From Oscillospiraceae bacterium (GTDB lineage: Bacteria; Bacillota; Clostridia; Oscillospirales; Ruminococcaceae): a stretch of DNA of 64,000 nucleotides. Shown one piece after another: positions 6,626 to 32,844 of the stretch. Both the position numbers and the translations under genes were made by a program. The first letter of the stretch is position 1; each line of letters opens with the position of its first letter. The stretch lies in contig JAZURJ010000035.1 of the NCBI GenBank assembly GCA_045606085.1, positions 9,032 to 73,031 of the forward strand. The letters run 5' to 3'. The notes under the pieces were generated by a model, which was not told the origin of the DNA, did no database searches, and saw only the letters and a list, made by a program, of their open reading frames with translations.

Positions 6626-6721
6626 TGTATCGCCTCTTGAAATGAAATCAATATATTATAACTCTTTTCGTCAAAAAAAGCAAGCAGCAGGTAAATATAT
6701 GGTATAATTCAATGAAACAAC

Positions 6722-6750
6722 TTGACAAAGAGAAAGAACAAGTATAGAAT
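6722..6750 (+). promoter_or_regulatory. Sigma-A type promoter for the AI-2E transporter gene
   Basis: TTGACA, 17 nt, TAGAAT. Confidence 0.6.
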
Positions 6751-6785
6751 ATATGTATATAATTATATCGTTGTGAGGTAACAAA

Positions 6786-8075: not shown

Positions 8076-8080
8076 ACATC

Positions 8081-8107
8081 AGACCACCGCTAACACGGTG
8101 GTCTTTT
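8081..8107 (+). terminator. Rho-independent terminator
   Basis: AGACCACCG / CGGTGGTCT stem followed by TTT. Confidence 0.75.
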
Positions 8108-8112
8108 CGTAT

Positions 8113-8148
8113 ATACAGCAAAGCACGCTGCCTTGCGACAGCGTGCTT
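8113..8148 (-). terminator. Probable terminator of the solute-binding protein gene
   Basis: 10-bp stem AAGCACGCTG / CAGCGTGCTT. The T-tract on the minus strand is weak. Confidence 0.45.
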
Positions 8149-8186
8149 CATAATATTGGAGAGGAACGATTTCCATGAAATTGTCG

Positions 8187-9587
8187 TTATTCTACAAATG
8201 TGCTGAGCTCGCTTTCGATAACGCCCTCGTACTCTGTGCGGAGCTGTGTCCAGCTCTTCTGGTTGTCGCCCTGCTCGAAAGCAAGGTTGATCACCATATC
8301 GTCGAGGATGGTCGTGAGGTTCTGGCTGATACCGCCGTGAACTGTAAGTACCATATTGTAATCAGCTACATTCTCGAAGGATGTAAGGAATTCGTACTGC
8401 TCTTCGCTGTACTGCTTGTCGTTCATGATACTTTCCTTAACGACAGCCTTGAGCTCAGGATCTGTACCGCAGCGACGCATGATATTGATGAAAGCTGCTG
8501 CACCCTTTACGTTCTCGGAGCCCTTGGGTACCATGTAACCAAAGGATGTTGTGCCGTAATAATACTCATCTGCACTGGGATCTCTGGGATAAGGAACAAA
8601 GCCGAACTCATACTCTTTATACAGCTTACAGAAATCGGTGATCTTCCACTGGCCGACGCCGAGGAATGCCACCTTACCGGAAACGAGAGGTGCAGACTCA
8701 TTACTCCACATACCGTCACCGCGAACCGCAAGACCCTCCTTACGGAGATCTGTAAGGAAGTTTGTTGCACGCTCAACTTCGGGTGTGTTCATGTTATTTA
8801 TGATCTTGCTGTCATTGATACCGATGAGAGGCGTGCCTGTGGATGTGATGATATCATGACCAAGCAGACCGTAAACACCACCGACTGCATCGGGATCTCT
8901 GTCCATGAAGTCGATCATTATGCCCTTGAATGTTTCCCATGTCCAGTTGCCCTGATCGTAAAGATCCTTGGGATCATCAAGACCGAGACCATCGAACTTG
9001 GTCTTGTTGTAAATCAGGCAGTTGGGAAGCGCATTAGCTGTAAAGGGATAGTAATAATGGCCGCCGTTGTATGCGTACTGCTCAACCAGTACGTCGTAGC
9101 CTGCCCACTGTGGCTGTGTGAGATCTATGTAGTCGGTAAGATCCTCAAATACGTTCTTGGAGATGAGGTTCGGGAATGTGATGTCTTCCTTATCGAACAG
9201 GTCGGGAGAATCACCGCTGGCGATCAGTGTCTGGAGCTTGTCGATACGCTCGCCCCATGCACACTGCAGGTAATCGATCTTGCCGCCGTAGGTCTCCTCA
9301 AAGAGCTTTACGCCGGGCTTGATATCGCCCGCAACTCTCATATCATAGTGACCGAAATAAACGAGATTAGGGTTCTCAAGTGTTGCGTTCTCAACGAAAT
9401 CCGTAATGTCAACGGGGTTCTGGATATCGTCATCCAGAGTATTTGTTGTTGTGGTAGCAGAGGTCGTGGTGTTAAGACCGCCGGGGGAAGTAGTTGCTCC
9501 GCCCTGAGGCTGTGATTCATCACAAGCTGTAAGGCTGAGAACCATTGCTGCACACAGGGCAGCCGCTGAGATCCTTTTGAAATTCAT
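8187..9587 (-). CDS. Extracellular solute-binding lipoprotein (ABC transporter family 1, sugar-type), no cognate permease genes nearby
   Basis: Lipobox LSLTAC followed by a Thr/Ser-rich linker. A large aromatic-rich SBP-like body. The second ATG (MNFKR) has AAAGGA 8 nt upstream, so it is preferred over 9596. Confidence 0.8.
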   Translation of the reverse strand: MNFKRISAAALCAAMVLSLTACDESQPQGGATTSPGGLNTTTSATTTTNTLDDDIQNPVDITDFVENATLENPNLVYFGHYDMRVAGDIKPGVKLFEETYGGKIDYLQCAWGERIDKLQTLIASGDSPDLFDKEDITFPNLISKNVFEDLTDYIDLTQPQWAGYDVLVEQYAYNGGHYYYPFTANALPNCLIYNKTKFDGLGLDDPKDLYDQGNWTWETFKGIMIDFMDRDPDAVGGVYGLLGHDIITSTGTPLIGINDSKIINNMNTPEVERATNFLTDLRKEGLAVRGDGMWSNESAPLVSGKVAFLGVGQWKITDFCKLYKEYEFGFVPYPRDPSADEYYYGTTSFGYMVPKGSENVKGAAAFINIMRRCGTDPELKAVVKESIMNDKQYSEEQYEFLTSFENVADYNMVLTVHGGISQNLTTILDDMVINLAFEQGDNQKSWTQLRTEYEGVIESELSTFVE

Positions 9588-9659
9588 AATGACCATCCTT
9601 TCAGATAATATTTGATATCGGGTACGCCCCGATACAGAGCACCGTTTCTTACTAATATA

Positions 9660-9688
9660 ATAATATCATTTTTATCGCTCTATTTCAA
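9660..9688 (-). promoter_or_regulatory. Sigma-A type promoter for the solute-binding protein gene
   Basis: Minus strand reads TTGAAA, 17 nt, TATTAT, with TGA just upstream (extended -10). Confidence 0.55.
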
Positions 9689-9850
9689 GTAGAAATTATT
9701 AACGGAGTTTCAAAAAACGAACATACACAAAACTCGTCGGCAGTGAAACACGATAAAAAATCAGATGAAACGATGGTTTTGCATTGCCTTGCGTGTTCGT
9801 TTTATCGAAAGTGTCGCTGATACCTTTATCGCTCGATATCGGATGATATA

Positions 9851-9879
9851 TTGACAAGGCATTTAAGAAATGATATGAT
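9851..9879 (+). promoter_or_regulatory. Sigma-A type promoter for the macro-domain gene
   Basis: TTGACA, 17 nt, TATGAT, with an upstream TG (extended -10). Confidence 0.6.
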
Positions 9880-9991
9880 TAAAACATAAGAATTCTGTAA
9901 AATATTATAACACTACTGCATATAATCAACATTAACACAACTGACATCATACAGCACAAAACAGACATAAAATGCGGAAAGGAGTACACAT

Positions 9992-11062
9992 ATGCCGCTT
10001 GAACTGATACGCAATGATATAACCAGAATGCAGGTGGACGCAATAGTTAATGCTGCAAACAGCTCCCTGCTCGGAGGCGGAGGCGTTGATGGTGCGATAC
10101 ACCGTGCCGCAGGTCCTGAGCTGCTTGAGGAATGCAGGACTCTTGGCGGCTGTGCAACAGGTGACGCAAAGATCACCAAGGGCTACAAGCTGCCCGCAAA
10201 GCACATCATACATACTGTCGGACCGATCTGGCACGGCGGTAATAAAGGCGAAAAGGAGCTTCTTACGTCCTGTTACAGACGCTCGCTGGAAACAGCCACC
10301 GATAACGCCTGCGAAAGCGTTGCATTTCCGCTGATATCCGCAGGCATCTACGGATACCCCAGAGCTGACGCCATACGCGTCGCAGTGGATACCATCAGCG
10401 ATTATCTGACGGCACACGACATGACAGTATACCTTGTTATCTTCGATACAGACAGCTTCGAGATAAGCTCAAAGCTGTTCAGTGATATCAGACAGTTCAT
10501 TGACGACAACTACGCCGATGAACACGATGACTTCAAATACCGCAGCAGCAGACTGGACGCTGAAAGACGTATGTTCAGGGCATTCAACAATGCTTCGATG
10601 CCATCCATAAAGCAGAAAGTCGCAGCGGATATGTACATGGCGGAGAAGGAAGTACATAATGCATCAGAGACAGTATGCTGCAACGCCGCTGCGTCAAGTC
10701 TTGAGGATGCTCTTGGCAAGCTGGATGAGAGCTTCTCGCAGATGCTGCTGAGAAAGATCGACGAAAAGGGCATTACAGATGCACAGTGCTACAAAAAAGC
10801 AAACATCGACCGAAAGCTGTTCTCGAAGATCCGCGGAGATATCCACTACCGCCCCAGCAAGCCGACAGTTCTGGCATTCGCAATAGCTCTGGAGCTTCCG
10901 CTGAACGAAACTAAGGATATGCTGATGAAGGCAGGGTATGCACTATCTCGTTCCAGCAAGAGCGATATCATCGTGGAATACTTCATACAGCACGGAAACT
11001 ACAACATCTTTGAGATAAACGAGGCACTCTTTGCATTCGATCAGAGCCTGCTGGGTGCATAA
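9992..11062 (+). CDS. Macro-domain (ADP-ribose binding/hydrolase, YmdB/MacroD-like) protein with C-terminal HTH-like domain
   Basis: N-terminus [26 protein letters not shown] and [15 protein letters not shown] are classic macro motifs. The C-terminal ~110 aa ([23 protein letters not shown]...[11 protein letters not shown]) looks like an XRE-type HTH. RBS GGAAAGGAG. Confidence 0.85.
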
Positions 11063-11158
11063 ATAAAATGTCGCCTTGAAAGCGACCATTTGTCCCGTGA
11101 TATATTATAGAATATGGTTGTAAGGAAAACACAGACCATATTTCAGGAGGTATATCAC

Positions 11159-11806
11159 ATGAAAAACAACATCACAGAGATCGTATTCATCCTTGACCGC
11201 AGCGGTTCCATGAGCGGCCTTGAGAGCGACACCATCGGCGGCTTCAACTCCATGCTGAAGAAGCAGCGTAACGAGGAAGGCACAGCATTTGTTTCAACGG
11301 TACTCTTCAACGACCGCAGCGTGGTGCTCCATGACAGAGCTCCGATCGAAAAGGTAGAGCAGATGACCGAGAGAGATTATGTGCCCTGCGGCTCCACTGC
11401 CCTGCTGGACGCTATCGGCGGTGCGATCCACCACATCGGCAACGTACATAAGTACGCAAGGAAAGAGGATATTCCCGAAAACACCATCTTCATCATCACG
11501 ACGGACGGCATGGAAAATGCAAGCCACATCTACTCCTCTGCAAAGGTCAAGAAGATGATAGAACGCCAGAAGGAAAGATACGGCTGGGAGTTCCTTTTCC
11601 TCGGTGCGAACATAGATGCAGTGGAAACCGCAAGGCACATCGGTATATCCGAGGACAGGGCAGCAAACTACTGCTGCGACGAGGCTGGTACTGAGCTGAA
11701 TTACAGAGCTGTCACGGATGCCATATCTCAGGTGAGATGCTCAAAGCCACTCTCGGCAAGCTGGAAAAAGTCCATTGACGAGGACTATAACAGACGCGGA
11801 AAATGA
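11159..11806 (+). CDS. Small cytoplasmic von Willebrand factor A (vWA) domain protein
   Basis: MIDAS motif FILDRSGSMSG, a later GSTAL and ITTDGMEN. No signal peptide. RBS AGGAGG. ATG at 11159 lies inside ORF 11114..11806. Confidence 0.85.
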   Translation: MKNNITEIVFILDRSGSMSGLESDTIGGFNSMLKKQRNEEGTAFVSTVLFNDRSVVLHDRAPIEKVEQMTERDYVPCGSTALLDAIGGAIHHIGNVHKYARKEDIPENTIFIITTDGMENASHIYSSAKVKKMIERQKERYGWEFLFLGANIDAVETARHIGISEDRAANYCCDEAGTELNYRAVTDAISQVRCSKPLSASWKKSIDEDYNRRGK

Positions 11807-11821
11807 TAACAAATAGCACTG

Positions 11822-11853
11822 ACCGCCGTAGCTACCGCTGCGGCGGTTTCTGT
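11822..11853 (+). terminator. Probable terminator after the vWA gene
   Basis: ACCGCCG / CGGCGGT stem followed by TTCTGT. Confidence 0.5.
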
Positions 11854-11964
11854 ATGCAAAATAGATTTGTACGATTTTTCTGACGATATATAATATACAT
11901 TTCACAGGCATGATGATATACTTTACTTGTATGTTATTTTTTAACTGTTCCAAGGTGGTATATC

Positions 11965-13761
11965 ATGAGTTCGAAGAAAAAACACAGTGCATTTGAGGCT
12001 GATTCCGAAATAGTACTGGACAGCTTCAGACGCAACAAGGACAACAAGCTGAAAACGCTGCTTGGTCTGTATAAAGGAAACTACTTCCGCCTGTTTATGG
12101 CGGTTCTGCTGTTTGCTGTGAAGCACTGCCCTGTCTGGGTGCTTCCTATCGCAACAGCAAATATAATCAATATTGCGACCGACCCTGATGAGAATGCTCT
12201 GAGGAACATCATCATAAACGTCGTGATAATGGTGGTGCTTGTGGCACAGAACGTGCTGTCCAACTACTTCCATGTGTCGTTCTATTCAAAGGCGATACGC
12301 AGCGTGGAGGCAGGTCTTCGCAGTACCATGGTCACAAAGCTGCAGAAGCTTTCTATGACATTTCACAACGAAATACAATCGGGACGTCTTCAGTCAAAGA
12401 TAATCCGTGATGTTGAACAGATAGAGGGTCTTTCTTCCCAGATATTCATTTCAGTGCTCAGCATCATCATGAATATCATCGTGGCATTCATCGTTGTGGT
12501 AAGCTCGTCACTGACAGTGTTCCTGTTCTTCCTCGGCACGATACCTGTTGCGGTCATCATCCGGACAGTATTCCGCCGCTCCGTCAATGCACGCAACCGT
12601 GAGCTGCGTAAGGAAATGGAAGAAACTACTGTCAGCGTTGTCGAGATGGTAGAGCTTATCCCTGTTACACGTGCACACGCTCTGGAGGATGTGGAAACAA
12701 GAAAGCTGAACACGCAGCTCAAAAAGACAGCGGAAAAGGGCTTCAGACTTGATGTTATCCAGAGCCTTTTCGGTTCGATAAGCTGGGCTTCGTTCCAGAT
12801 ATTCCAGGTAGTATGTCTCGGATTTACAGGATACCTTGCGGCAAGGGGCACTATCCTCCCCGGTGACGTCGTGATGTACCAGACATATTTCTCCACCATC
12901 GTAAATCAGGTGAGTGGTATCATCACACTGATGCCGATAATCGCAAAGGGCATGGAGGCTATCACCTCCGTCGGCGAGGTACTGCTCAGCGAGGATCTTG
13001 AGGAGCCAGAGGAAAAGCCCGATATCGGGAACGTAACAGGAAACATCGAATTCAGAAACGTAACATTCCAGTTCCACGATGCAGATACTCCTGTCCTGAA
13101 GGATCTGAGCTTCAGCGTAAACTCGGGCGAGACCATCGCCTTCGTCGGTGCATCTGGTGCTGGTAAAACGACGATACTCAACCTGCTCATAGGTTTTCTC
13201 AGAGCACAATCGGGTCAGATACTCATAGACGGCAGAAACATCGAGGATTTCAGCCTGAAGAGCTATCGAGAGCATATTGCGGTCGTTCCTCAGAATGCGA
13301 TCATCTTCACAGGCACAATCCGTGAGAATATCACTTACGGCGAGGAGGATGTGGACGATGAATTCCTCAACGAGGTGGTGAAATCAGCCAATCTCGATGA
13401 GCTGATAGCATCGCTGCCAGACGGTCTGGATACAAAGATAAACGAGCACGGTGCAAATCTTTCGGGCGGACAGCGTCAGAGAGTATCCATCGCACGCGCG
13501 TTTATACGCAATCCTAAGATACTTATCCTGGATGAGGCTACGTCCGCCCTGGATACGGTATCCGAACGAAAGATACAGGAGAGTGTTGACAAGCTGGTGC
13601 AGAACAGAACTACTCTGATAGTCGCACACAGGCTCTCTACCATAAGAAACGCAGACAGGATCGCTGTTATAGGCGACGGTGGTCTGCTGGAATTCGGCAC
13701 CTTCGATGAGCTGATGGACAAGAAGGGCGAATTCTATCACATGAGAACTTTACAGGGATGA
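11965..13761 (+). CDS. ABC exporter, fused permease/ATPase (MsbA/type IV exporter fold)
   Basis: 6-TM N-terminal half, Walker A GASGAGKTT, signature LSGGQRQRVSIARA, Walker B LILDEATSALD. Confidence 0.9.
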   Translation: MSSKKKHSAFEADSEIVLDSFRRNKDNKLKTLLGLYKGNYFRLFMAVLLFAVKHCPVWVLPIATANIINIATDPDENALRNIIINVVIMVVLVAQNVLSNYFHVSFYSKAIRSVEAGLRSTMVTKLQKLSMTFHNEIQSGRLQSKIIRDVEQIEGLSSQIFISVLSIIMNIIVAFIVVVSSSLTVFLFFLGTIPVAVIIRTVFRRSVNARNRELRKEMEETTVSVVEMVELIPVTRAHALEDVETRKLNTQLKKTAEKGFRLDVIQSLFGSISWASFQIFQVVCLGFTGYLAARGTILPGDVVMYQTYFSTIVNQVSGIITLMPIIAKGMEAITSVGEVLLSEDLEEPEEKPDIGNVTGNIEFRNVTFQFHDADTPVLKDLSFSVNSGETIAFVGASGAGKTTILNLLIGFLRAQSGQILIDGRNIEDFSLKSYREHIAVVPQNAIIFTGTIRENITYGEEDVDDEFLNEVVKSANLDELIASLPDGLDTKINEHGANLSGGQRQRVSIARAFIRNPKILILDEATSALDTVSERKIQESVDKLVQNRTTLIVAHRLSTIRNADRIAVIGDGGLLEFGTFDELMDKKGEFYHMRTLQG

Positions 13762-13765
13762 TGAT

Positions 13766-14494
13766 ATGAGCTATATTCAGAGCTTCCGCAGGTACGAAAC
13801 AAAGTACCTGATAACGGAAAAACAGGCAGAAAAGCTTCTGGAGTTGGCGGGCGATCTTCTCACGCCCGACCGCTACGGAGATTACACCATATGCAACCTA
13901 TATCTCGACACGGATGATTTCTACTTCATCCAACGCTCGCTGGACAAACCCAAGTACAAGGAAAAGCTCAGGCTGAGAAGCTACGGGAATGCAGACGATC
14001 AGCAGCAGGTATTCCTTGAGATAAAGAAAAAGTATCGCGGCGTCGTTTATAAACGCAGGATCACTCTTCCCTGCACCGAAGCCATGGATTACATACAAAA
14101 CGGCGTCAAGCCGCCTTCGGTAAATACACCGCTGGCAGAACAGATATTCTCGGAGATAGATTTCCTGATGAAACGGTTCAAGCCTTCGCCGAAGGTATAT
14201 CTTGCATACGACAGACTGGCGTTCTTCTCGAAAAAATATCCGCAGCTGCGTGTTACCCTCGACAACAGGATCCGCAGCCGCTGGGATGACCTCACACTTG
14301 CAAGCGATGAGGACATCTTTTTTCTGGACACGAAAGTAAACGATTACCGACTGATGGAGATCAAATCGGACGGAGCGATACCTGTTGAGCTGACCGAGAT
14401 ACTCTCAAAACTTTGCATCTATCCCACATCTTTCTCGAAATACGGCAATATTTATATGAACGCTGTCCGCAGCGGAAAGGAAATACTGACATGA
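13766..14494 (+). CDS. VTC-domain (Vtc4-like polyphosphate polymerase / triphosphate-tunnel) protein
   Basis: SFRRYETKYLI start, KEKLRLRSY, FLEIKKKYRGVVYKRR and MEIKSDG: the alternating basic/acidic beta-strand pattern typical of CYTH/TTM VTC domains. Starts 4 nt after the ABC exporter stop. Confidence 0.75.
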   Translation: MSYIQSFRRYETKYLITEKQAEKLLELAGDLLTPDRYGDYTICNLYLDTDDFYFIQRSLDKPKYKEKLRLRSYGNADDQQQVFLEIKKKYRGVVYKRRITLPCTEAMDYIQNGVKPPSVNTPLAEQIFSEIDFLMKRFKPSPKVYLAYDRLAFFSKKYPQLRVTLDNRIRSRWDDLTLASDEDIFFLDTKVNDYRLMEIKSDGAIPVELTEILSKLCIYPTSFSKYGNIYMNAVRSGKEILT

Positions 14495-15162
14495 CAGAAT
14501 TTATCTTTAGCAAGACCGACATACTTTCCGGCTTCCCCACTGTTCTCGCTTCCATTGGAATCACGCTGCTGTGCGGCGTTATCTGTGCTTTGGCATACAG
14601 ATTTGGTGCTGATCGTCCCTCCAAGTACATGATCATAACATCGCTCATAATGCCGACTATCGTTGCTGCTGTGATAACGATGGTAAACGGCAGCATCGGA
14701 GCAGGCGTTGCCGCTGCAGGTGCTTTCAGCCTCGTGCGTTTCCGCTCCGTTCCCGGCAGCTCCCGTGATATCTGTATGCTCTTCATGGGTATGGCGGCAG
14801 GTCTTGTTGCCGGCATGGGCTTCATCGGCTATGCACTGGGACTTACGATATTACTGGCAGTGGTTGTGATCGCTGCTGAGCTGCTTCTTCCCGGTGCAAA
14901 AAACCGCAGACAGCTCAAAATATCCGTCCCCGAGGATCTCGACTACAACGGCGTTTTCGATGAGGTGATAAAGGAATACACCACATACAGCAGACTTGAC
15001 CACGTAAAGACAGTACGCATGGGTACCATGTACGAACTTGTATATGAGATACACATGAAAAAAAGTGCTTCCGAAAAGGAAATGATCGATAAGCTGAGAT
15101 GCCGCAACGGAAACCTTACGATCTCACTCGGAATGGTCCCTGACACCAAGGACGAACTATAA
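14491..15162 (+). CDS. DUF4956-type membrane protein (4 TM segments plus a cytoplasmic C-terminal domain)
   Basis: ATG at 14491 overlaps the VTC gene stop (ATGA). Hydrophobic N-terminal half, with LVRFRSVPGSSRD between helices. Recalled as the usual partner of bacterial VTC-domain genes. Confidence 0.7.
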   Translation: MTEFIFSKTDILSGFPTVLASIGITLLCGVICALAYRFGADRPSKYMIITSLIMPTIVAAVITMVNGSIGAGVAAAGAFSLVRFRSVPGSSRDICMLFMGMAAGLVAGMGFIGYALGLTILLAVVVIAAELLLPGAKNRRQLKISVPEDLDYNGVFDEVIKEYTTYSRLDHVKTVRMGTMYELVYEIHMKKSASEKEMIDKLRCRNGNLTISLGMVPDTKDEL

Positions 15163-15175
15163 GAAAGGAGCCATC

Positions 15176-17167
15176 ATGTGTAACAGAAAAACACTTCAGA
15201 TAGCCTCCCTGCTGATAGCGGCCGTCTTGCTGACAGGATGCTCCGACATTGCAACTTCACAAGAAAGCGAAAGCAGCATCTCAACTGACACTTCCACATC
15301 ACAGATTGGCACCGTTGAGGATGTGACCACAGAAAGTTCCGAGGCTCTGCCCGAGAACGAGGAAAAACCAACTCTTCCGCCGTCTGTTCAGCTTTCGCAG
15401 GAAAGCGGCATATACGCTGAGCAGTTTCAGCTGACACTTACCGCACTGGAAGACGGTACAGTATACTACACACTCGACGGCAGCGACCCAGCCACAAGCA
15501 GCACCGCGATCGAATACACCACTCCCATTACAATCACTGACAGAAAGGACGCTGTAAACGTAGTGTCCGCTGTTGACCCTCTTGAGATAGCGGGCAGCTT
15601 CAACAAGCCAAACAAGGACAGAAACGGCTTTGTCAGCGAACTGGCTGCTCCCGATGATGAAGCTGTTGTCAAGTGCACTGTCATCCGAAGTGCCGTAAAG
15701 CTCAGCGATGGCACATTTGCAGGAGAAACAGCCGCAACATATTTCATCGGCACACCGGAGGAACACATTGCAGGTCTTGCGGAGAGCTGTGCCGCATCAG
15801 GAACAAGCCTTGCAGTGATAAGCCTTTCCATGAATTACGATGACCTATTCGACGAAGAACAGGGCATCTACGTCAAGGGCAGCATCTTTGACAAGGCACT
15901 GGAAGAGTTCCTTGCCGAGAATAAACGTGTCCGTGACGGAGAGACCGCACGCTCACTGGACGCAAACTACAAGCAGCGTGGCAGAGAATGGGAACGAACA
16001 GCTTCTATGGTAATGTTCGAATTTGACGAAAACGGTGCAACGCAGGTTCTTAATCAGAACTGCGGAGTGAGAGTACAGGGAAACTACTCCCGTTCCGATG
16101 TGCAGAAGGGTCTGCGTCTTTATGCACGCAAGGAATATGGCGACAAGAATTTCCGCTATGCCGTGTTCGGCGAGGATTACGTTAATGACGGCGGAGATGT
16201 GATGGACAAGTACAAGACACTGGTGCTGAGAGCTGGTGGCAACTGTGCTTTCCTGGCAAAGTTCAACGATACGTTCTGGCAGTCGCTGCTGCATGAATCC
16301 GCCTGCGACACCAAGCATTCAAGACCCTGCGTTGTATATCTCAACGGCGAGTACTGGGGTCTGTACGTGCTTGAAGAGGATTACTCCAATGACTATTTCG
16401 AGGATGTACACGGTGTAAACAAGGATAATGTCGTCGTATACAAGGGCGATGCAGAAACCTACGAACTCGGATACAAGCTGGACGAGGGTAAGATACCCGA
16501 CGGCGAGGATGAGGATTACTACTTCAATGAGCTGCTGAGCTTCTTCGATACACACAGCGATCTGAAAAATCAGGCTGATTACGATAAATTCGTAAAGCTG
16601 GTGGACCCCGAATCCGTCCGTGATTACTTTGCTGTAAACGTATGGATAAACAACAAATGGGACTGGCCGGGCAAGAACTGGTCGATGTGGCGTGTTACAG
16701 TTCCCGAGGAGAACGACAATCCCTACGGCGACGGCAGATGGCGTTTCACACTGTACGACATTGAATTCGGCGGTGTCAGCGGAGGCGGCGATGCACGTGC
16801 CATGACGATAAAGGAGGCAAATTACAAGACGAACGGTCTTCTCGACATGGACACAAACAATCCTGCAGTTCTGTGTTTTGCTTACCTCATGACCAACGAA
16901 GGCTTCCGCAACGATTACTACGACCGCCTGCTGGGTCTTGCAGAGAACGAATTTGAAAAGACTGCCGCTCTCGCAAGGTTGTCTGAATTTGAAAGCAGCT
17001 ACGGTCCGCTGTTCGATCAGTTCTTCCTGAGATATCCTGAAACAGGTTCCACTGAGGACGCACTTAACGGCGGCTACGGAAGTGCAGCCTGCCTGCGTGA
17101 CTTCATAAGCCAGCGTAGCGGAAACATACAGAGAATGATCGACTGGTGCGAGAAAACACTCAACTGA
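15176..17167 (+). CDS. Secreted lipoprotein with CotH kinase-family domain and N-terminal chitobiase/Fn3-associated-like domain
   Basis: Lipobox LLTGCS. YYTLDGSDPATSS motif. CotH-like blocks LVLRAGGN and EYWGLYVLEEDYSNDYF. RBS AAAGGAG. Confidence 0.8.
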   Translation: MCNRKTLQIASLLIAAVLLTGCSDIATSQESESSISTDTSTSQIGTVEDVTTESSEALPENEEKPTLPPSVQLSQESGIYAEQFQLTLTALEDGTVYYTLDGSDPATSSTAIEYTTPITITDRKDAVNVVSAVDPLEIAGSFNKPNKDRNGFVSELAAPDDEAVVKCTVIRSAVKLSDGTFAGETAATYFIGTPEEHIAGLAESCAASGTSLAVISLSMNYDDLFDEEQGIYVKGSIFDKALEEFLAENKRVRDGETARSLDANYKQRGREWERTASMVMFEFDENGATQVLNQNCGVRVQGNYSRSDVQKGLRLYARKEYGDKNFRYAVFGEDYVNDGGDVMDKYKTLVLRAGGNCAFLAKFNDTFWQSLLHESACDTKHSRPCVVYLNGEYWGLYVLEEDYSNDYFEDVHGVNKDNVVVYKGDAETYELGYKLDEGKIPDGEDEDYYFNELLSFFDTHSDLKNQADYDKFVKLVDPESVRDYFAVNVWINNKWDWPGKNWSMWRVTVPEENDNPYGDGRWRFTLYDIEFGGVSGGGDARAMTIKEANYKTNGLLDMDTNNPAVLCFAYLMTNEGFRNDYYDRLLGLAENEFEKTAALARLSEFESSYGPLFDQFFLRYPETGSTEDALNGGYGSAACLRDFISQRSGNIQRMIDWCEKTLN

Positions 17168-17175
17168 TAATAACT

Positions 17176-17203
17176 ATACCCCGTGGACTCACGGGGTATT
17201 TTT
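17176..17203 (+). terminator. Rho-independent terminator after the CotH gene
   Basis: ATACCCCGTG / CACGGGGTAT stem followed by TTTT. Confidence 0.85.
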
Positions 17204-17263
17204 GCGTATAAAAAGGTATAAGAGGGGGATATTAACATATACGAACAGAAAGGAGGAGGGCAT

Positions 17264-18754
17264 ATGTCACAGGACAGGATACACACTAATCTCCCCTCTT
17301 GTACTCAGATAGATACAGACCTTGACAAAAACCTATCCAACATAAAGCTGATGACAGGCGGCTCATCGGATGTGGTGGTGAAGCCTGCACTGGTGTGCGG
17401 CAACAGGATAGCAGTGGTGACAACTGAAGGTATGACAGGCGTTACCACACTGGCTGCACTTGTTTACGAAAAGCTGAACGATCTTGATGGAAGAGGATCG
17501 CTGCCACCGTCTGAACTGGTCGAAAACTTCTTCAACTCGTATCTTATAGCTGCACAGCAGCTCGACGTCAAGGATCTCGGTGACCTCTGCTGGAAGCTGG
17601 AGAGCGGTTTTGCGATACTTCTCACCAACGGAAGTTCACGTGCTATCGCCATCGGAGTACAGGGTTTCCAGTACCGCAGCGTAGGAGAGCCATCTACCGA
17701 AAACGATGTGCGTGGCTCGCGTGAGGGTTTCGTGGAGGTAATACGCTTCAACATGGGACTTGTAAGGCGGCGTATCAAGTCACCGACGCTGGTATTCGAG
17801 ATGTCGCAGTTAGGAGATCGCAGCAAAACGGATGTCTGCCTGTGTTATCTCAGCGACAAGGTATCGCCCGCACTGCTGAAGAACGTCAGGAACAGATTGA
17901 AACAGGTAAAGCTGAACACGATTCTTGAAAGCGGATATATACAGCCTTATCTTGAGGGCAAGGGCGGCTGGTTCTTTTCGGAATGCGGCACGTGCGAACG
18001 CCCCGACAGTCTTGCAGCCAAGCTGTACGAAGGCAGGGTCGGTATACTTGTGGACGGAACACCGTTTGCACTGGTAGTTCCGTATCTGTTCATCGAGAGC
18101 TTTCAGACGATGGATGACTACGCACAAAAGCCTTTTTACGCTACCTTTATACGTTTCGTGCGGCTGGCAGCATATCTTATCACGATATTTCTTCCCGGTG
18201 CATATGTAGCGATAGCATCGTTCAGCCCCGAGATGCTGCCGTCAGCCCTGATACTGAATCTTGCGGCAGCGGAACAGACCGCTCCATTCTCGCTGATGAT
18301 GGAATGTCTGCTTATACATTTCATGTACGAGATACTCCGTGAGGCAGGCATACGACTTCCACGCCCGATCGGCCATGCGATAGGCGTCGTTGGCGGTCTG
18401 GTCATCGGAGATATAACTGTTAACGCAGGGCTTGTGGGTGCACCGATGGTGCTTGTAGTCGCATTGTCGGGACTGTGCAGCTTTGTCGTGCCGTCACAAT
18501 ACGAAAGGACCGTTGTGCTGCGTTTTCTGTACATCGTTGCAGGCGGAATATTCGGGCTGTTCGGGCTGTTTCTTGCGGCGGCTGCGGTAATAATCAAGAT
18601 GTGCAGCATCAACACCTACGGAGTGCCGTATATGTCGCCGCTGTCACCCTTTACGCCATCAGCAAGCCGTGATATGCTCGTGCGTGCAGGATGGAAGCAG
18701 CTTGCGGGAACAGATATCTCGCTTGATGACCTTAACGGCTCAGAGGAGGTGTGA
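17264..18754 (+). CDS. Spore germination protein, GerA/GerKA family (A subunit)
   Basis: Family-typical blocks VRGSREGFVE, RRRIKSP, GRVGILVDGTP, and a C-terminal membrane region. RBS AAAGGAGGAGGG. Confidence 0.9.
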   Translation: MSQDRIHTNLPSCTQIDTDLDKNLSNIKLMTGGSSDVVVKPALVCGNRIAVVTTEGMTGVTTLAALVYEKLNDLDGRGSLPPSELVENFFNSYLIAAQQLDVKDLGDLCWKLESGFAILLTNGSSRAIAIGVQGFQYRSVGEPSTENDVRGSREGFVEVIRFNMGLVRRRIKSPTLVFEMSQLGDRSKTDVCLCYLSDKVSPALLKNVRNRLKQVKLNTILESGYIQPYLEGKGGWFFSECGTCERPDSLAAKLYEGRVGILVDGTPFALVVPYLFIESFQTMDDYAQKPFYATFIRFVRLAAYLITIFLPGAYVAIASFSPEMLPSALILNLAAAEQTAPFSLMMECLLIHFMYEILREAGIRLPRPIGHAIGVVGGLVIGDITVNAGLVGAPMVLVVALSGLCSFVVPSQYERTVVLRFLYIVAGGIFGLFGLFLAAAAVIIKMCSINTYGVPYMSPLSPFTPSASRDMLVRAGWKQLAGTDISLDDLNGSEEV

Positions 18755-18755
18755 T

Positions 18756-19685
18756 ATGATCAGCACATCACAGCTTTTGTGTTTACTGCTGCTGTCACGG
18801 ATATCAGCAGAGATAGTCTATCCTACTGTGGGCGGCTACGATATAACTACACTTGTATCAGCGGCTGTGGCTGAGGCATTACGTTTTACCGTCGCACTTC
18901 CCTTTATCCTGTACTCGATACGAGGAAACGATATGTACGCTGCAATAACAAGGAAAAGCAGGATAGCGGGATGGATATTCGCTGCGGCAGCAGCATTTCT
19001 GATATCATTCGCTGCCGCAAGGTGTGCACTGTTTTCCGCAGAATATGCACAGAGAACGGTACTTTCGGGTATGTCAGGCGGCGTCATCACGATCCTTATC
19101 GGCGTATTTGCCGTGTATTGTGCTACACGAGGTGCCGAGGGCATCGCACGCGGCGGAGTGCTGATACTTGCGGGGGCGGCGTTGCTTACTCTGATTATAG
19201 CACTTTCAACACTACAGCACATCCGCCCCCCAGAGCTTGGCACCAAGCCATACAGCAAAGATCTGATATCGCAGGTATATGAACGCATGATGCGTGGCGG
19301 TGAATATCTCATGTTTGCGGCACTTCTCCCCTGCACACGCAGGAAGAAAGGAAGCATCGCTCCTGCAGGAACAGCCGTTATCTTTGCTTTGTCATCGTTA
19401 TGCATCGTTGTACTGATAAACTTATTTTCCATGGCTGTGCTTGGCGAGTTCTTCGGAATTGCGGACAATCCTCTGACCGATATTGCACAGCTTTCCGATA
19501 TCGTTCTGTTCAAACGTCTTGACGGCTTCGCAGGTGCATTATGGTCAGTTGCGGCGGCTATCCGATGCGGGGCGTTCCTGTTCAGTGCTTATGCGTTCTT
19601 CAGGTCAGTTACAACTGCAAGGAAAGGAGCTTCATATGAAAAGATTACTGACAGCCATGCTTCTGGCAGGCACTCTGCTGCTTAG
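18756..19685 (+). CDS. Spore germination protein B subunit (GerAB-type permease)
   Basis: Polytopic membrane protein between the A and C subunit genes. The ATG at 18756 follows the A-subunit stop by 1 nt and has GAGGAGG upstream. It lies within ORF 18669..19685. Confidence 0.75.
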   Translation: MISTSQLLCLLLLSRISAEIVYPTVGGYDITTLVSAAVAEALRFTVALPFILYSIRGNDMYAAITRKSRIAGWIFAAAAAFLISFAAARCALFSAEYAQRTVLSGMSGGVITILIGVFAVYCATRGAEGIARGGVLILAGAALLTLIIALSTLQHIRPPELGTKPYSKDLISQVYERMMRGGEYLMFAALLPCTRRKKGSIAPAGTAVIFALSSLCIVVLINLFSMAVLGEFFGIADNPLTDIAQLSDIVLFKRLDGFAGALWSVAAAIRCGAFLFSAYAFFRSVTTARKGASYEKITDSHASGRHSAA

Positions 19686-20568
19686 CGGCTGTGCCGATGT
19701 AACTGAGCTTGGCGACCGTGCAATCGTCCAGCTTGCCGTGATAGATCACGACGGAAGCAACTATAAACTAAGCACGCTGCTGTTCAGTGCAGGCGGCAGC
19801 GGCGGTACGATAGATGTCACAAAGGACAATGTGATAAAGGTGACGGGAAGCGGTGAAACTCTCGGTGATGCAATAGCACAGGTGTCGCTTATCGACGGTA
19901 AGGATATCTACATGAGCGAAACAAAGCTTCTTGTGCTTGGCAGCGGATTTGAGCAGGCGGATGTCGTTTCAGTGCTGACGATGCTTTACAGAGATATGCG
20001 TTGCAGCCTGAACACCCCCGTATGCTGTTCCGAAAACGCGGAACTGCTGACCGATCTCGAATTCACCGAGGGCATAACAGCAGCCGAAAAGCCATTCAGT
20101 ATGATAAGAAACGCAGAGCTCATGGGAGCATCGCAGGAAACAACGCTGCTCGATATACTTGCAGGAAATGAAGCCGGAAGATCAGTCATTATTCCAAGCT
20201 TCACAGAAAGCAAAAACGGATCGGGTATGACGACCGACACCGAAGGAAGAACAGCAGTCCTTGACGGCTCGCGTTTCATTTCAGGCGGGCGGCTGACAGG
20301 TCATGCTGATATGGAACAGACAATGGGGTATCTGATATTATCAGGACTTGCTGACAGCGTTGCCATCAGCTTCATATATGAAGGCGAAGAGTATCGCTGC
20401 GAGGCTTACAATATCACCGCCGAGTTCATCTCGCCTGAACGTATCAGCATCGAAGCTGACTACCGCAGCCCGGGCGGCGAACCTCTTTCAGAAAAGCAGG
20501 AAACGATCGCTCAAAAGGAGCTTTATAAACTCGCAGCAAAAGCAACACCGCTGATAAACATGGCATAA
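19636..20568 (+). CDS. Spore germination lipoprotein, Ger(x)C family
   Basis: Lipobox LLLSGCADV. ATG at 19636 is preceded by AAAGGAG and overlaps the B-subunit 3' end by 50 nt. Operon position. Confidence 0.8.
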   Translation: MKRLLTAMLLAGTLLLSGCADVTELGDRAIVQLAVIDHDGSNYKLSTLLFSAGGSGGTIDVTKDNVIKVTGSGETLGDAIAQVSLIDGKDIYMSETKLLVLGSGFEQADVVSVLTMLYRDMRCSLNTPVCCSENAELLTDLEFTEGITAAEKPFSMIRNAELMGASQETTLLDILAGNEAGRSVIIPSFTESKNGSGMTTDTEGRTAVLDGSRFISGGRLTGHADMEQTMGYLILSGLADSVAISFIYEGEEYRCEAYNITAEFISPERISIEADYRSPGGEPLSEKQETIAQKELYKLAAKATPLINMA

Positions 20569-32289: not shown

Positions 32290-32844
32290 TTATAACTGTT
32301 TTTTGAACTCCTCAAGAAAGCGGTGCAGCTTGCCAAGACACACGACCTCGGTTCGCTCTATCCCTGCCGCCTCAGTTATCTCGCCGAGAAGTGTACGAGC
32401 AATATCTTCATCAGTGAATTCTATCTCAAGTTCGTAGTCGGTCCTGCCGAAATAGCTGCTCTTGTCAAGGTCGATCTCGGCACCGTCTGTTTTCTTTACG
32501 CTGCGTCGTGTCGTTAATTCACCAAGGAGCTTTACATCAGGCATATCCTCACGTCCTGTGAGTGTGTTCAGCATTTCTGCTCCGAGAGCTTCGGGCAGTT
32601 CGCTGCCAAGCTCCTGCTCAAGCTCCACGCGTGAATAGCTGACGCCCGTGGGCAGCTTCACCTGCAGGTAATGCACTCCGTCTATCCTGCGTACACGGCA
32701 GGTGATGTGAGCATCGACCAACTGCAGATCATCTGTATCATAGTAGAAATTGGTCTGAGTTATTTCCCTGTCCCATTCATACATATTTTGGATACATTCG
32801 TACTGCTGCTGTGACAGTAACACCTTGAATTCGCTTTCTATCAT
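32290..32844 (-). CDS. CYTH-domain (triphosphate tunnel metalloenzyme) protein
   Basis: IESEFKVLL start (ExExK motif), RVRR, LEIEF strands. Confidence 0.75.
   Translation of the reverse strand: MIESEFKVLLSQQQYECIQNMYEWDREITQTNFYYDTDDLQLVDAHITCRVRRIDGVHYLQVKLPTGVSYSRVELEQELGSELPEALGAEMLNTLTGREDMPDVKLLGELTTRRSVKKTDGAEIDLDKSSYFGRTDYELEIEFTDEDIARTLLGEITEAAGIERTEVVCLGKLHRFLEEFKKQL

What the first reader, a model, noticed from the sequence alone, without database searches (positions are those of the whole stretch)
11965..17167. ABC exporter / VTC domain / DUF4956 / secreted CotH kinase operon: candidate bacterial polyphosphate synthesis-and-export module
Seen: four co-directional genes are packed with a 4-nt gap (13761/13766), an ATGA overlap (14491/14494) and a 13-nt gap (15162/15176). 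They are bracketed by hairpin terminators at 11822-11853 and 17176-17203, so they very likely form one transcript. The products are an MsbA-like ABC exporter, a soluble ~240-aa VTC-domain protein, a 4-TM DUF4956 protein and a lipoprotein carrying a CotH kinase domain.

Established: in yeast the Vtc4 triphosphate-tunnel domain polymerises polyphosphate from ATP and hands it to transmembrane VTC subunits for translocation. B. subtilis CotH is an atypical protein kinase acting on spore-coat proteins.

Inference: here a VTC catalytic domain, a dedicated membrane partner and an extracytoplasmic CotH kinase are genetically welded together, next to a germinant-receptor operon. This suggests polyP (or another phospho-donor) is made at the membrane, exported, and used or sensed outside the cell or at the spore surface. 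I know of no experimentally described function for bacterial VTC-DUF4956-CotH clusters.
Basis: partly seen in the sequence, partly recalled or inferred. Interest (0 to 1): 0.7.

Follow-up and report, generated by a model that had tools for sequence, protein, structure and literature searches.

The report
Bacterial VTC–DUF4956–CotH surface module
A gut Clostridia bacterium carries a conserved three-gene set (a yeast-type polyphosphate-polymerase domain, its dedicated membrane partner and a surface-anchored CotH kinase) whose function nobody has tested; the ABC exporter in front of it is a recent add-on found only in this lineage.

Summary
All four ORFs, the 4-nt gap, the ATGA overlap, the 13-nt gap, both hairpins and all domain calls were reproduced.

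The conserved unit is three genes, not four. In syntenic relatives (85% and 80% identity) the same promoter region runs directly into the VTC gene, and an 1848-bp block holding the ABC exporter is missing. No ABC orthologue lies next to VTC in 80 VTC-centred loci. No VTC lies beside the 42 ABC-centred loci with a strong match.

The invariant core is VTC→DUF4956, adjacent in about 77 of 80 genomes. The third gene is an exchangeable surface lipoprotein:
- CotH in this clade, in an Enterococcus plasmid and in Nonomuraea.
- A Cthe_2159 β-helix protein in about 44 of 80 loci.

The VTC protein models as a Vtc4-type tunnel (Foldseek E 1e-13). It keeps every Vtc4 catalytic residue, including the Lys that distinguishes the active subunit. 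DUF4956 shows no detectable similarity to the VTC membrane subunits. Linkage to gerA is local only, so a spore role is unsupported.

The trio is already noted in the literature (Pel operons, C. perfringens NELoc-2) but remains uncharacterised. Polyphosphate synthesis with hand-off to the cell surface is plausible but untested.

The parts
11821..11848 (+). Hairpin terminator of the upstream VWA-like gene. It marks the 5' boundary of the transcription unit.
   Evidence: 12-bp stem, -25.6 kcal/mol, z -5.1. Also found as a shorter stem. The position is conserved in L081.
11867..11894 (+). Likely sigma-A-type promoter: TTGTAC, 16 nt, TATAAT. It is conserved in relative L081, where it directly precedes the VTC gene.
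   Evidence: Read from the sequence. The block 11860-11922 aligns almost base for base with L081. A second consensus match at 11894-11922 appears. Promoter function is inferred only.
11901..11919 (+). Left copy of a 19-nt direct repeat at the edge of the ABC-gene block.
   Evidence: 17 of 19 bases identical to 13749-13767, spacing 1848 nt. It coincides with the points where homology to L081 breaks. Chance cannot be excluded.
11965..13761 (+). Half-size type-I ABC exporter (six-helix ABC_membrane domain plus nucleotide-binding domain; Walker A GASGAGKT, signature LSGGQ). It is an indel specific to this lineage, placed between the trio's promoter and the VTC gene.
   Evidence: Pfam. NCBIfam MsbA scored 399.7, below the 602 cut-off. 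Absent at this site in L081, L082 and L085. No orthologue beside VTC in 80 loci. No VTC, DUF4956 or CotH beside the 42 loci of its relatives that had a strong match.
13749..13767 (+). Right copy of the 19-nt direct repeat, spanning the ABC stop codon and the VTC start codon.
13766..14494 (+). Soluble VTC-domain protein: a triphosphate-tunnel fold of the Vtc4 type and a candidate polyphosphate polymerase.
   Evidence: Pfam VTC 2.3e-41. AlphaFold pLDDT 85.7. Foldseek best hits are the yeast Vtc4 tunnel domain, E 7e-14, TM 0.69-0.72. Catalytic residues K13, R69, R71, K87, Y148, R150, R162, E198, S224 and K225 are invariant.
14491..15162 (+). DUF4956 membrane protein: five predicted helices, a conserved cytoplasmic loop FSLVRFRS-PGSSRD and a C-terminal ACT-like domain. 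It is the obligate partner of the VTC gene and is translationally coupled to it (ATGA overlap).
   Evidence: Pfam. Adjacent to VTC in about 77 of 80 loci. AlphaFold pLDDT 77.8. Conservation. Loop charges.
15176..17167 (+). Surface lipoprotein: lipobox Cys22, a Ser/Thr/Glu-rich linker, CHB_HEX_C_1 and Fn3_assoc modules, then a CotH kinase domain (about residues 298-648).
   Evidence: Pfam. The same architecture is found in over 120 homologue clusters. The catalytic-loop D496...N501 and the metal-binding D528 are conserved when aligned with B. cereus CotH 5JD9.
17176..17199 (+). Intrinsic terminator ending the unit, upstream of gerA.
   Evidence: 10-bp stem with 6 GC pairs, followed by TTTTTG.

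Best explanation
The functional unit is a three-gene, self-contained module. It is neither Pel-bound nor spore-bound.

(1) The 242-aa VTC-domain protein is a Vtc4-type triphosphate-tunnel enzyme. At the cytoplasmic face of the membrane it polymerises the gamma-phosphate of ATP (or another NTP) into an inorganic polyphosphate chain.

(2) DUF4956 is its dedicated membrane partner. It docks the tunnel through its conserved arginine-rich cytoplasmic loop and ACT-like domain and, probably as an oligomer, passes or presents the product at or across the membrane.

(3) The third gene encodes an exchangeable extracytoplasmic lipoprotein that works with that product. Here it is a catalytically competent CotH kinase carrying glycan-binding-type modules, which would phosphorylate a surface or matrix glycan or protein. 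Exported polyphosphate is the obvious candidate phosphoryl donor or cofactor in an ATP-poor compartment.

The ABC exporter was inserted downstream of the trio's promoter in this lineage only. It is co-transcribed with the trio but is not part of the mechanism.

Shown: gene order and coupling, family and fold assignments, residue conservation, synteny statistics.

Inferred: polymerase activity, the VTC-DUF4956 contact, translocation, and the use of polyphosphate by CotH.
For: Fold and catalytic residues of the VTC protein:
- The fold and Pfam domain are of the VTC type rather than generic CYTH. Foldseek gives Vtc4 E 7e-14 against other tunnel enzymes at about 1e-7.
- The residues shown by mutagenesis to be needed in Vtc4 (K200, R264, R266, K281, Y359, R361, S457, K458, with E426 binding Mn; bioRxiv 10.1101/2023.01.27.525886) correspond to invariant K13, R69, R71, K87, Y148, R150, S224, K225 and E198.
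- K458, which is Ile or Leu in the inactive subunits Vtc2 and Vtc3, is Lys here.

The VTC-DUF4956 pair:
- VTC is followed by DUF4956 in about 77 of 80 species-level genomes.
- The 4-nt overlap is kept in L002, L004, L012, L081, L082, L085 and L086.
- All positively charged loops of DUF4956, including the invariant RFRS-PGSSRD loop, fall on one side together with the ACT-like domain. This fits a cytoplasmic docking face.

The third gene:
- It is almost always extracytoplasmic. It is a CotH lipoprotein in the window clade, in L022 and L069, in E. faecalis plasmid LR962858 and in Nonomuraea.
- It is a Cthe_2159 beta-helix protein in 38 of 47 downstream genes scanned and in 44 of 80 loci. The alignment consensus of these downstream genes starts MKK...GC, which looks like a lipobox.
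- An NJ tree shows partner swaps on a conserved core.
- At least 38 contig lengths are shared between the CotH hit list and the VTC or DUF4956 hit lists. This is a proxy for co-location on the same contig.

CotH and expression:
- CotH keeps the kinase catalytic Asp/Asn and the metal-binding Asp.
- In C. perfringens the VTC and DUF4956 homologues are co-regulated (PMC4983038).
- Low-depth metatranscriptome contigs cover the VTC/DUF4956 junction and CotH.
Against: - There is no biochemical evidence for polyphosphate synthesis by any bacterial VTC-domain protein (literature searches).
- DUF4956 has no detectable structural or sequence similarity to the Vtc1/Vtc3/Vtc4 membrane domains. Foldseek gave nothing below E 0.009, only ACT/PII-like hits to the C-terminal domain.
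- Its conserved basic residues sit in loops, not inside the helices as in the yeast channel.
- No genuine VTC-DUF4956 fusion proteins were found. The few two-domain hits are truncated chimeras.
- CotH kinases studied so far use ATP.
- CotH of identical architecture also occurs without VTC or DUF4956 (L087, L088).
- Single deletions of the three homologues in S. intermedius gave no clear phenotype in rich medium, and those authors proposed that the polyphosphate stays cytoplasmic (10.1101/2024.04.20.589940).
- In 22 of 81 loci (80 survey loci plus the window) neither CotH nor Cthe_2159 lies within three genes of VTC.
Confidence: 0.4

Rival explanations
1. Polyphosphate is made but stays inside the cell. 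VTC makes cytoplasmic or membrane-proximal polyphosphate. DUF4956 is only an anchor and allosteric regulator that senses a ligand through its ACT-like domain. CotH is an independently acting secreted kinase or glycan-binding protein using whatever ATP is available. The genes are co-regulated as a stress or surface-remodelling regulon rather than physically coupled.
For: DUF4956 does not resemble any known anion channel or the VTC membrane domain. Its C-terminal domain is ACT/PII-like, a typical small-molecule sensor. The S. intermedius authors drew the same inference. CotH occurs alone elsewhere. OmpR-type two-component systems frequently flank the pair (13 loci; also L158, L160 and L161).
Against: It does not explain why the third gene is so consistently a lipoprotein or secreted protein of two unrelated folds. 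It also does not explain why a soluble enzyme needs an obligate, translationally coupled polytopic membrane partner in about 77 of 80 genomes.
Confidence: 0.3
2. The tunnel enzyme is not a polymerase. Like many CYTH/TTM proteins it hydrolyses triphosphate or NTPs, or makes a small phospho-signal. The DUF4956 ACT-like domain or the neighbouring two-component system reads that signal to control surface functions.
For: The TTM superfamily is functionally diverse, and lower-ranked Foldseek hits are triphosphatases and putative cyclases. The module lacks the SPX domain and the VTC membrane domains.
Against: The best structural and profile matches are specifically to Vtc4. The full set of residues needed for polymerisation is kept, including the Vtc4-specific Lys. 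The genome already encodes a separate generic CYTH protein at 32290-32844.
Confidence: 0.15
3. One reading: a four-gene operon in which the MsbA-like ABC exporter is an integral part of a polyphosphate synthesis-and-export machine.
For: In this genome the ABC gene shares the promoter and lies 4 nt upstream of VTC. That arrangement exists in natural populations.
Against: Syntenic relatives carry the trio without the ABC gene at the same site (L081, L085). L082 and L086 also lack it. No orthologue lies beside VTC in 80 loci. None of the 42 loci of ABC relatives with a strong match (32-73% identity) carries VTC, DUF4956 or CotH, and the closest ones are solitary genes. NCBIfam places it below every equivalog cut-off.
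Confidence: 0.05
4. A spore-related function: CotH phosphorylates spore-coat or germination proteins, as in Bacillus, in concert with the adjacent GerA receptor.
For: gerABC follows directly at 17264-20568, and this neighbourhood is kept in L082 and L085. B. subtilis cotH mutants germinate poorly (PMC7821199).
Against: A strong terminator separates the units. In L082 an opposite-strand gene intervenes, and L081 and L086 have no ger genes nearby. The protein is a lipoprotein exported from the cell, unlike mother-cell CotH. The trio occurs in non-sporeformers: Enterococcus and Nonomuraea, and Streptococcus and Bifidobacterium. The conserved promoter looks sigma-A-like.
Confidence: 0.05

Closest known systems
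Eukaryotic VTC complex (S. cerevisiae Vtc4/Vtc3/Vtc1; PDB 3G3Q, 7YTJ, 8I6V)
   Same: The same Pfam domain and the same tunnel fold (Foldseek E 7e-14, TM about 0.7). The same catalytic Lys/Arg/Tyr/Ser/Glu set, including Vtc4-specific K458. A soluble catalytic tunnel genetically tied to a polytopic membrane protein.
   Different: There is no SPX sensor domain. There is no fused three-helix membrane domain and no Vtc1-like subunit. The membrane partner is the unrelated DUF4956 (five helices plus an ACT-like domain). The destination would be the cell exterior, not a vacuole. A surface kinase or beta-helix protein is attached to the module. Activity is untested.
cotH / 'polyphosphate polymerase' / DUF4956 accessory genes of Gram-positive pel operons (Whitfield et al., bioRxiv 10.1101/768473; S. 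intermedius SIR_1592-1594, 10.1101/2024.04.20.589940) and C. perfringens NELoc-2 CP4_0460-0465 (PMC2879425)
   Same: The same three families are adjacent. CotH is predicted to be secreted, and the VTC protein is predicted to be catalytically competent.
   Different: Here the trio stands alone. No pel-type genes were found in 64 kb, no DUF4832 hydrolase was seen, and the gene order is different (VTC-DUF4956-CotH). CotH carries CHB_HEX_C_1 and Fn3_assoc modules instead of a C-terminal FN3. The S. intermedius authors reported that they could not find the trio outside pel operons. This window and loci L081, L082, L085, L086, L159 and L161 are counter-examples.
Bacillus CotH spore-coat Ser/Thr kinase (B. 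cereus 5JD9; B. subtilis D228, D251)
   Same: Pfam CotH domain. The catalytic-loop Asp/Asn and the metal-binding Asp are conserved.
   Different: About 20% identity or less (profile E 5e-4). It is exported as a lipoprotein with about 290 extra N-terminal residues. It has an 8-residue insertion, and the catalytic Asp sits one residue out of register. It is not in a cotG/cotB context. The substrate is unknown.
Bacterial polyphosphate kinases PPK1 and PPK2
   Same: They would make the same product from NTPs.
   Different: The folds are unrelated, and they are cytoplasmic enzymes with no export function. The module here would be a third, VTC-type route in bacteria.
MsbA/HepA-like homodimeric ABC exporters
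   Same: ABC_membrane + ABC_tran architecture with intact Walker A and signature motifs.
   Different: It scores below every NCBIfam equivalog cut-off (MsbA 399.7 against 602). The substrate is unknown, and it is not conserved with the trio.

Membership tests
VTC-type triphosphate tunnel polyphosphate polymerase (Vtc4) | Pfam VTC domain (PF09359) above the gathering score, matched over its full length | tested here: met
   142.3 bits against a cut-off of 23; residues 9-228 match profile positions 2-229 of 235.
VTC-type triphosphate tunnel polyphosphate polymerase (Vtc4) | Eight-stranded beta-tunnel fold closest to Vtc4 | tested here: met
   AlphaFold pLDDT 85.7, pTM 0.83. Foldseek top 13 hits are all Vtc4, Vtc3 or Vtc2, E 7e-14 to 2e-10, TM 0.6-0.72. 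Other tunnel enzymes score E 8e-8 or worse.
VTC-type triphosphate tunnel polyphosphate polymerase (Vtc4) | Catalytic residues K200, R264, R266, K281, Y359, R361, E426, S457 and K458 (K458 distinguishes active Vtc4 from Vtc2/3) | tested here: met
   The HMM alignment to 3G3Q/5IIQ gives K13, R69, R71, K87, Y148 and R150. E198 is placed through the MEIK motif aligned to Vtc2 (weak). S224-K225 in SFSKYG is placed by motif order within the full-length Pfam match, which is an inference. All are invariant in 21 homologues.
VTC-type triphosphate tunnel polyphosphate polymerase (Vtc4) | SPX sensor domain and a C-terminal three-helix membrane domain, assembled with Vtc1 | tested here: not met
   The protein is 242 aa and consists of the VTC domain only. 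The partner DUF4956 gives no Foldseek match to Vtc1, Vtc3 or Vtc4 membrane domains.
VTC-type triphosphate tunnel polyphosphate polymerase (Vtc4) | Makes polyphosphate from ATP | not testable with these tools
   Needs an enzyme assay. No published assay of a bacterial member was found.
CotH atypical protein kinase (PF08757) | Pfam CotH domain above the gathering score | tested here: met
   108.5 bits against 23.8, residues 298-648. A profile built on this clade finds B. cereus CotH 5JD9 at E 5e-4.
CotH atypical protein kinase (PF08757) | Catalytic-loop Asp (B. subtilis D228) with Asn five residues on | tested here: met
   D496-x4-N501 (DWPGKN against B. cereus DGFVHN). The Asp column is displaced by one residue in this clade, whereas the E. 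faecalis and Nonomuraea trio CotHs have Asp in both columns. The register shift is a caveat.
CotH atypical protein kinase (PF08757) | Metal-binding Asp (B. subtilis D251; the W-D motif) | tested here: met
   Y527-D528 aligns with B. cereus W246-D247 in a 10-sequence MAFFT alignment and is conserved in all of them. The pairwise HMMER alignment had misplaced it.
CotH atypical protein kinase (PF08757) | Spore-coat location and CotG/CotB-type substrates | tested here: not met
   A lipoprotein signal with lipobox LLTGC. There is no cotG/cotB context, and homologous trios occur in non-sporeformers.
DUF4956 (PF16316) | Pfam match above the gathering score | tested here: met
   45.9 bits against 30.6. 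The family has 4356 clusters at 50% identity with E up to 1e-3.
MgtC/SapB family (considered for DUF4956 because both have several TM helices plus an ACT-like domain) | Detectable profile similarity to an MgtC-family protein | tested here: not met
   Pfam MgtC gave only sub-threshold hits: 5 of 29 members at E 0.16 or worse, and P0386 at 6e-4. hhalign of alignment A4 against E. coli YhiD gave probability 0.5%.
MsbA lipid A exporter (TIGR02203) | Score above the equivalog cut-off | tested here: not met
   399.7 against 602. All other named ABC equivalogs are also below their cut-offs. It is a generic type-I ABC exporter.
Pel-operon accessory cluster (cotH, polyphosphate-polymerase gene, DUF4956, DUF4832) | Contiguous with pelDEA(DA)FG | tested here: not met
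   No pel-type families (glycosyltransferase, PelG or deacetylase) appeared among the reported hits for 59 ORFs across the 64-kb window. One search lists only the top 25 of 36 families, so weak hits may have gone unseen.
Anti-phage defence systems (PADLOC) | Any specific model hit | tested here: not met
   Only generic nucleotide-binding-domain hits for the ABC protein, and nothing for VTC or DUF4956.

The most novel reading that the evidence does not exclude
Bacteria have a VTC-type polyphosphate synthase coupled to a new kind of membrane conduit (DUF4956) that delivers polyphosphate to the cell surface. There, interchangeable surface proteins (CotH kinases or Cthe_2159 beta-helix proteins) use it, for example as the phosphoryl donor for extracellular phosphorylation of glycans or proteins in a compartment without ATP. 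This would be both the missing bacterial polyphosphate exporter and the first polyphosphate-fuelled extracellular kinase system.
Probability: 0.2. Interest if true: 0.85.

Novelty: new variant of a known kind. Interest (0 to 1): 0.55.

Why it matters
Bacterial polyphosphate is attributed to PPK1 and PPK2, and no exporter is known even though surface and secreted polyphosphate are reported. This claim rests on my own knowledge and was not checked here.

A widespread module pairs a catalytically complete Vtc4-type polymerase with an obligate membrane partner and a surface enzyme. The DUF4956 family has thousands of members. The module gives a concrete route to test. It can be examined in tractable hosts that carry the trio, such as Enterococcus faecalis plasmid LR962858 and Streptococcus intermedius.

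It also bears on what secreted CotH kinases do in gut and rumen anaerobes, and on how a kinase could be fuelled outside the cell.

If the hypothesis fails, the result still corrects two ideas. The trio is not confined to pel operons, and neither the ABC exporter nor the spore context belongs to it.

Tried and rejected
- Single-sequence phmmer of VTC and CotH against PDB sequences found nothing. Profiles were needed.
- A profile of the C-terminal part of VTC did not give a significant Vtc4 alignment. The S457/K458 equivalence therefore rests on motif order.
- An exact-sequence look-up of the VTC protein found no record.
- DUF4956 as an MgtC relative was rejected.
- DUF4956 as a homologue of the VTC membrane domain was not supported.
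- Natural VTC-DUF4956 fusions would have shown a physical interaction. Only truncated chimeric gene calls were found.
- A defence-system reading found no PADLOC hits.
- No pel genes were found in the window.
- ABC co-travel was rejected from both the VTC side and the ABC side.
- Expression evidence consists of one metatranscriptome with depth 3-5 contigs. One contig crosses the terminator, so DNA carry-over cannot be excluded and operon structure is not shown by RNA.
- Annotation for the plasmid-collection hits was empty, so genes were called by hand.
- A co-fold of VTC with DUF4956 could not be run.

Full report
**1. Observation**

The four co-directional ORFs, their spacing and both flanking hairpins are exactly as described. 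Pfam places them in ABC_membrane + ABC_tran, VTC (2.3e-41), DUF4956 (6.9e-12) and CHB_HEX_C_1 / Fn3_assoc / CotH (6.1e-31), all above the curated cut-offs. The CotH protein starts with a lipoprotein signal, LLTGC22. gerA, gerB and gerC follow after a strong terminator.

Independent metagenome contigs from three studies span the ABC-VTC junction, so the arrangement is real. The sources of the matching runs are gut and faecal metagenomes, including goat, bovine and wildlife samples. The closest named relatives are uncultured Oscillospiraceae and Ruminococcus.

**2. The ABC exporter is not part of the conserved unit**

- L085 (CotH 80% identical) has the same order as the window: SBP, Macro, VWA-like, VTC, DUF4956, CotH, GerA, GerB, GerC, LRR, HTS. 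There is no ABC gene.
- L081 (VTC 85% identical) is the same at the 5' side.
- Nucleotide homology to L081 runs through the terminator and promoter region up to window 11922 and resumes at 13764. The window therefore has 1842 nt where L081 has 57 nt.
- A 19-nt direct repeat (17 of 19 identical) sits at both edges, 1848 nt apart. This fits an indel between short repeats, although chance is not excluded.
- L082 and L086 also have the trio without an ABC gene.
- In 80 VTC-centred loci from one genome per species, no orthologous ABC gene is adjacent.
- In the ABC-centred metagenome scan, the 42 loci with a strong match (32-73% identity) carry no VTC, DUF4956 or CotH. The closest relatives are solitary genes.
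- NCBIfam leaves the protein below every equivalog threshold.

The ABC gene is co-transcribed here by position, but it is a passenger specific to this lineage.

**3. The spore link is local only**

gerABC follows the trio only in close relatives. In L082 an opposite-strand gene lies between them, and L081 and L086 have other neighbours. The trio also occurs in non-sporeformers (see section 4). The conserved promoter-like sequence, TTGTAC-16-TATAAT at 11867-11894, looks sigma-A-type (inference).

**4. What is conserved**

VTC is followed by DUF4956 in about 77 of 80 loci. The ATGA overlap is preserved throughout the CotH-linked clade.

The third gene varies:
- It is CotH in 7 of the 80 loci, plus the window, L081, L082, L085 and L086.
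- In 38 of 47 downstream genes scanned, and in 44 loci by clustering, it is a protein with the Cthe_2159 beta-helix carbohydrate-binding domain. The alignment consensus of these downstream genes begins MKK...GC, a lipobox-like start.
- On an NJ tree of the VTC proteins, the CotH-linked genes form one clade plus two singletons inside a Cthe_2159-linked majority (no support values were computed).

Cultured, distant taxa repeat the pattern:
- E. faecalis plasmid LR962858: VTC, DUF4956, response regulator, histidine kinase, CotH lipoprotein.
- Nonomuraea gerenzanensis: VTC, DUF4956, CotH.
- Paenibacillus cellulosilyticus: two-component system, then VTC, DUF4956, Cthe_2159 lipoprotein.
- Acetoanaerobium noterae: two-component system, VTC, DUF4956, then a PLD/Cls-like protein.

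Other recurrent neighbours are OmpR-type two-component systems (13 loci), a metallo-beta-lactamase-fold protein (8 loci), ECF sigma with an RsgI-like anti-sigma factor, and TelA/XpaC.

Conversely, CotH proteins of the same architecture exist without VTC or DUF4956. L088 has a tight GH31-CotH-GH43 cluster, and L087 lies next to sortase and pilin genes.

The fixed element is therefore the VTC-DUF4956 pair. CotH is a frequent, independently recurring partner, but not an obligate one.

**5. The VTC protein**

The AlphaFold model (pLDDT 85.7) is a beta-tunnel with flanking helices. Its best PDB matches are the yeast Vtc4 catalytic domain bound to polyphosphate or AppNHp (E 7e-14 to 1e-13, TM 0.69-0.72). 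Generic tunnel enzymes score around 1e-7.

The residues that bind the triphosphate and Mn2+ in Vtc4, and that are required for polyphosphate synthesis in vivo, were taken from the literature. They map to K13, R69, R71, K87, Y148, R150, E198, S224 and K225. All are invariant in 21 homologues of 53-85% identity. K458, which is replaced in the inactive subunits Vtc2 and Vtc3, is Lys here. The last three equivalences rest on weak alignment or motif order. There is no SPX domain and no membrane segment.

**6. DUF4956**

The model (pLDDT 77.8) has five helices, at residues 15-39, 45-64, 69-86, 91-108 and 112-132, and a C-terminal beta-alpha-beta-beta-alpha-beta domain.

Every positively charged loop lies on the same side as the C-terminal domain, which suggests an N-out, C-in topology. 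This includes the invariant FSLVRFRS-PGSSRD loop between two Gly/Ala-rich helices.

Foldseek finds only weak ACT/PII-like matches to the C-terminal domain and nothing like the VTC membrane domains. A suspected relation to MgtC was not supported. The family is large, with 4356 clusters at 50% identity, and its members are almost always stand-alone proteins of about 225 aa. The few proteins hitting both VTC and DUF4956 are truncated chimeras.

**7. CotH**

A profile of this clade reaches B. cereus CotH at E 5e-4. A 10-sequence alignment shows the metal-binding Asp (B. subtilis D251) as D528. It shows the catalytic-loop Asp/Asn as D496 and N501, with the Asp displaced by one residue and an 8-residue insertion specific to this subfamily. 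The roles of D228 and D251 come from PMC7821199.

The N-terminal CHB_HEX_C_1 and Fn3_assoc modules also occur on a secreted CAP-domain protein at 46975-47916. Together with the glycoside-hydrolase contexts, this points to a glycan-rich surface target (inference).

**8. Literature**

- The adjacency of cotH, a 'polyphosphate polymerase' gene and DUF4956 was listed in C. perfringens NELoc-2 in 2010, where DUF4956 was mis-named tubulin/FtsZ (PMC2879425).
- It was described as an accessory gene set of Gram-positive pel operons (10.1101/768473).
- In S. intermedius, single deletions did not abolish Pel production or aggregation. The authors found the trio only inside pel operons and suggested that the polyphosphate stays cytoplasmic (10.1101/2024.04.20.589940).
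- No biochemical study of a bacterial VTC-domain protein or of DUF4956 was found.
- The window has no pel genes. Together with the loci above, it shows that the trio is an autonomous module.
- I did not find the Cthe_2159 alternative partner mentioned in the literature.

**9. Mechanism**

The most economical reading has three parts: a Vtc4-type polymerase working at the membrane, an obligate membrane partner, and a product that is relevant outside the cell. The third point follows because the variable third gene is nearly always a surface protein of one of two unrelated folds.

I give about 0.4 to 'polyphosphate made and handed to or through DUF4956 for use by the surface partner'. I give about 0.3 to 'polyphosphate stays inside, DUF4956 regulates, and CotH acts independently'. 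I give about 0.15 to a non-polymerase tunnel activity, and about 0.05 each to the ABC-integral and spore readings.

The weakest link is translocation. DUF4956 has no recognisable channel features beyond the Gly-rich helices and the arginine loop.

**10. Verdict**

The cluster type is already noted in the literature but not characterised. Relative to the characterised systems, the eukaryotic VTC complex and Bacillus CotH, it is a new variant. Interest is moderate to high because it gives a directly testable route to a VTC-type polyphosphate pathway in bacteria and to a possible polyphosphate exporter.

Noticed in passing
window 46975-47916 (+): A secreted CAP (cysteine-rich secretory protein) domain protein carries two CHB_HEX_C_1/Fn3_assoc modules. 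This is the same N-terminal module as on the CotH lipoprotein, so it appears to be a reusable surface-targeting unit in this organism.
   Followed up: partly
window 11901-11919 and 13749-13767: A 19-nt direct repeat (17 of 19 identical) lies exactly at the two points where homology to the ABC-less relative L081 breaks, 1848 nt apart. It may be a footprint of the insertion or deletion of the ABC gene. Repeats of similar quality occur by chance in the same 2.2 kb.
   Followed up: partly
window ~11230-11700 (inside the VWA-like gene 11114-11806): This segment recruits many contig fragments of at least 90% similarity, at 5-20 times the depth of the flanks, in three metagenomes and one metatranscriptome. 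The fragments have loose ends on both sides and internal 'skips'. It looks like a stretch shared by many community members. The protein itself is below the Pfam VWA_CoxE cut-off.
   Followed up: no
window 32290-32844 (-): A separate generic CYTH-domain (triphosphate tunnel) protein lies next to a calcineurin-like phosphoesterase and a lipoate/biotin ligase-family gene. The genome therefore has two tunnel-enzyme paralogues of different subfamilies.
   Followed up: no
window 17153-17401: A metatranscriptome contig (run X20) crosses the terminator at 17176-17199 into gerA. This is either read-through or DNA carry-over in the RNA library.
   Followed up: no
L088:4920-10492 and L087:1-9000: CotH lipoproteins of the same architecture (60-64% identical) occur without VTC or DUF4956. 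One is packed between GH31 and GH43 genes in a glycoside-hydrolase cluster. The other lies beside sortase and SpaA pilin genes.
   Followed up: partly
L007-L078 (e.g. L021:11377-13239), L158:8470-10365: In most Clostridia sampled, and in Paenibacillus cellulosilyticus, the gene after VTC-DUF4956 encodes a Cthe_2159 beta-helix 'carbohydrate-binding' protein of 570-770 aa instead of CotH. The alignment consensus shows a lipobox-like start. I found no mention of this pairing in the literature searched.
   Followed up: partly
L161 (E. faecalis plasmid LR962858, 6983-12110) and L159 (Nonomuraea gerenzanensis, 6686-10051): The VTC-DUF4956-CotH trio is present on an Enterococcus plasmid, with an OmpR-type two-component system inserted before CotH, and in an actinomycete. 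Neither has pel genes within 7 kb. The Enterococcus plasmid offers a genetically tractable host.
   Followed up: partly
L160:8501-10054 (Acetoanaerobium noterae): Here the gene after VTC-DUF4956 is a membrane-anchored PLD-superfamily, cardiolipin-synthase-like protein (PLDc_N plus two PLDc domains). It may be an unrelated neighbour.
   Followed up: no
Literature: B. thetaiotaomicron BT3498-BT3499: In an iron-stimulon table, a DUF4956 gene is listed as co-regulated with an adjacent DUF2490 gene (PMC10434189). If the DUF2490 protein is an outer-membrane protein, the diderm version of the module would include an outer-membrane component.
   Followed up: no
window 9992-11062 (+): A Macro-domain protein (ADP-ribose binding or hydrolase) has a C-terminal extension of about 220 aa with no Pfam match. 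It is conserved upstream of the trio in L085 but absent in L082.
   Followed up: no
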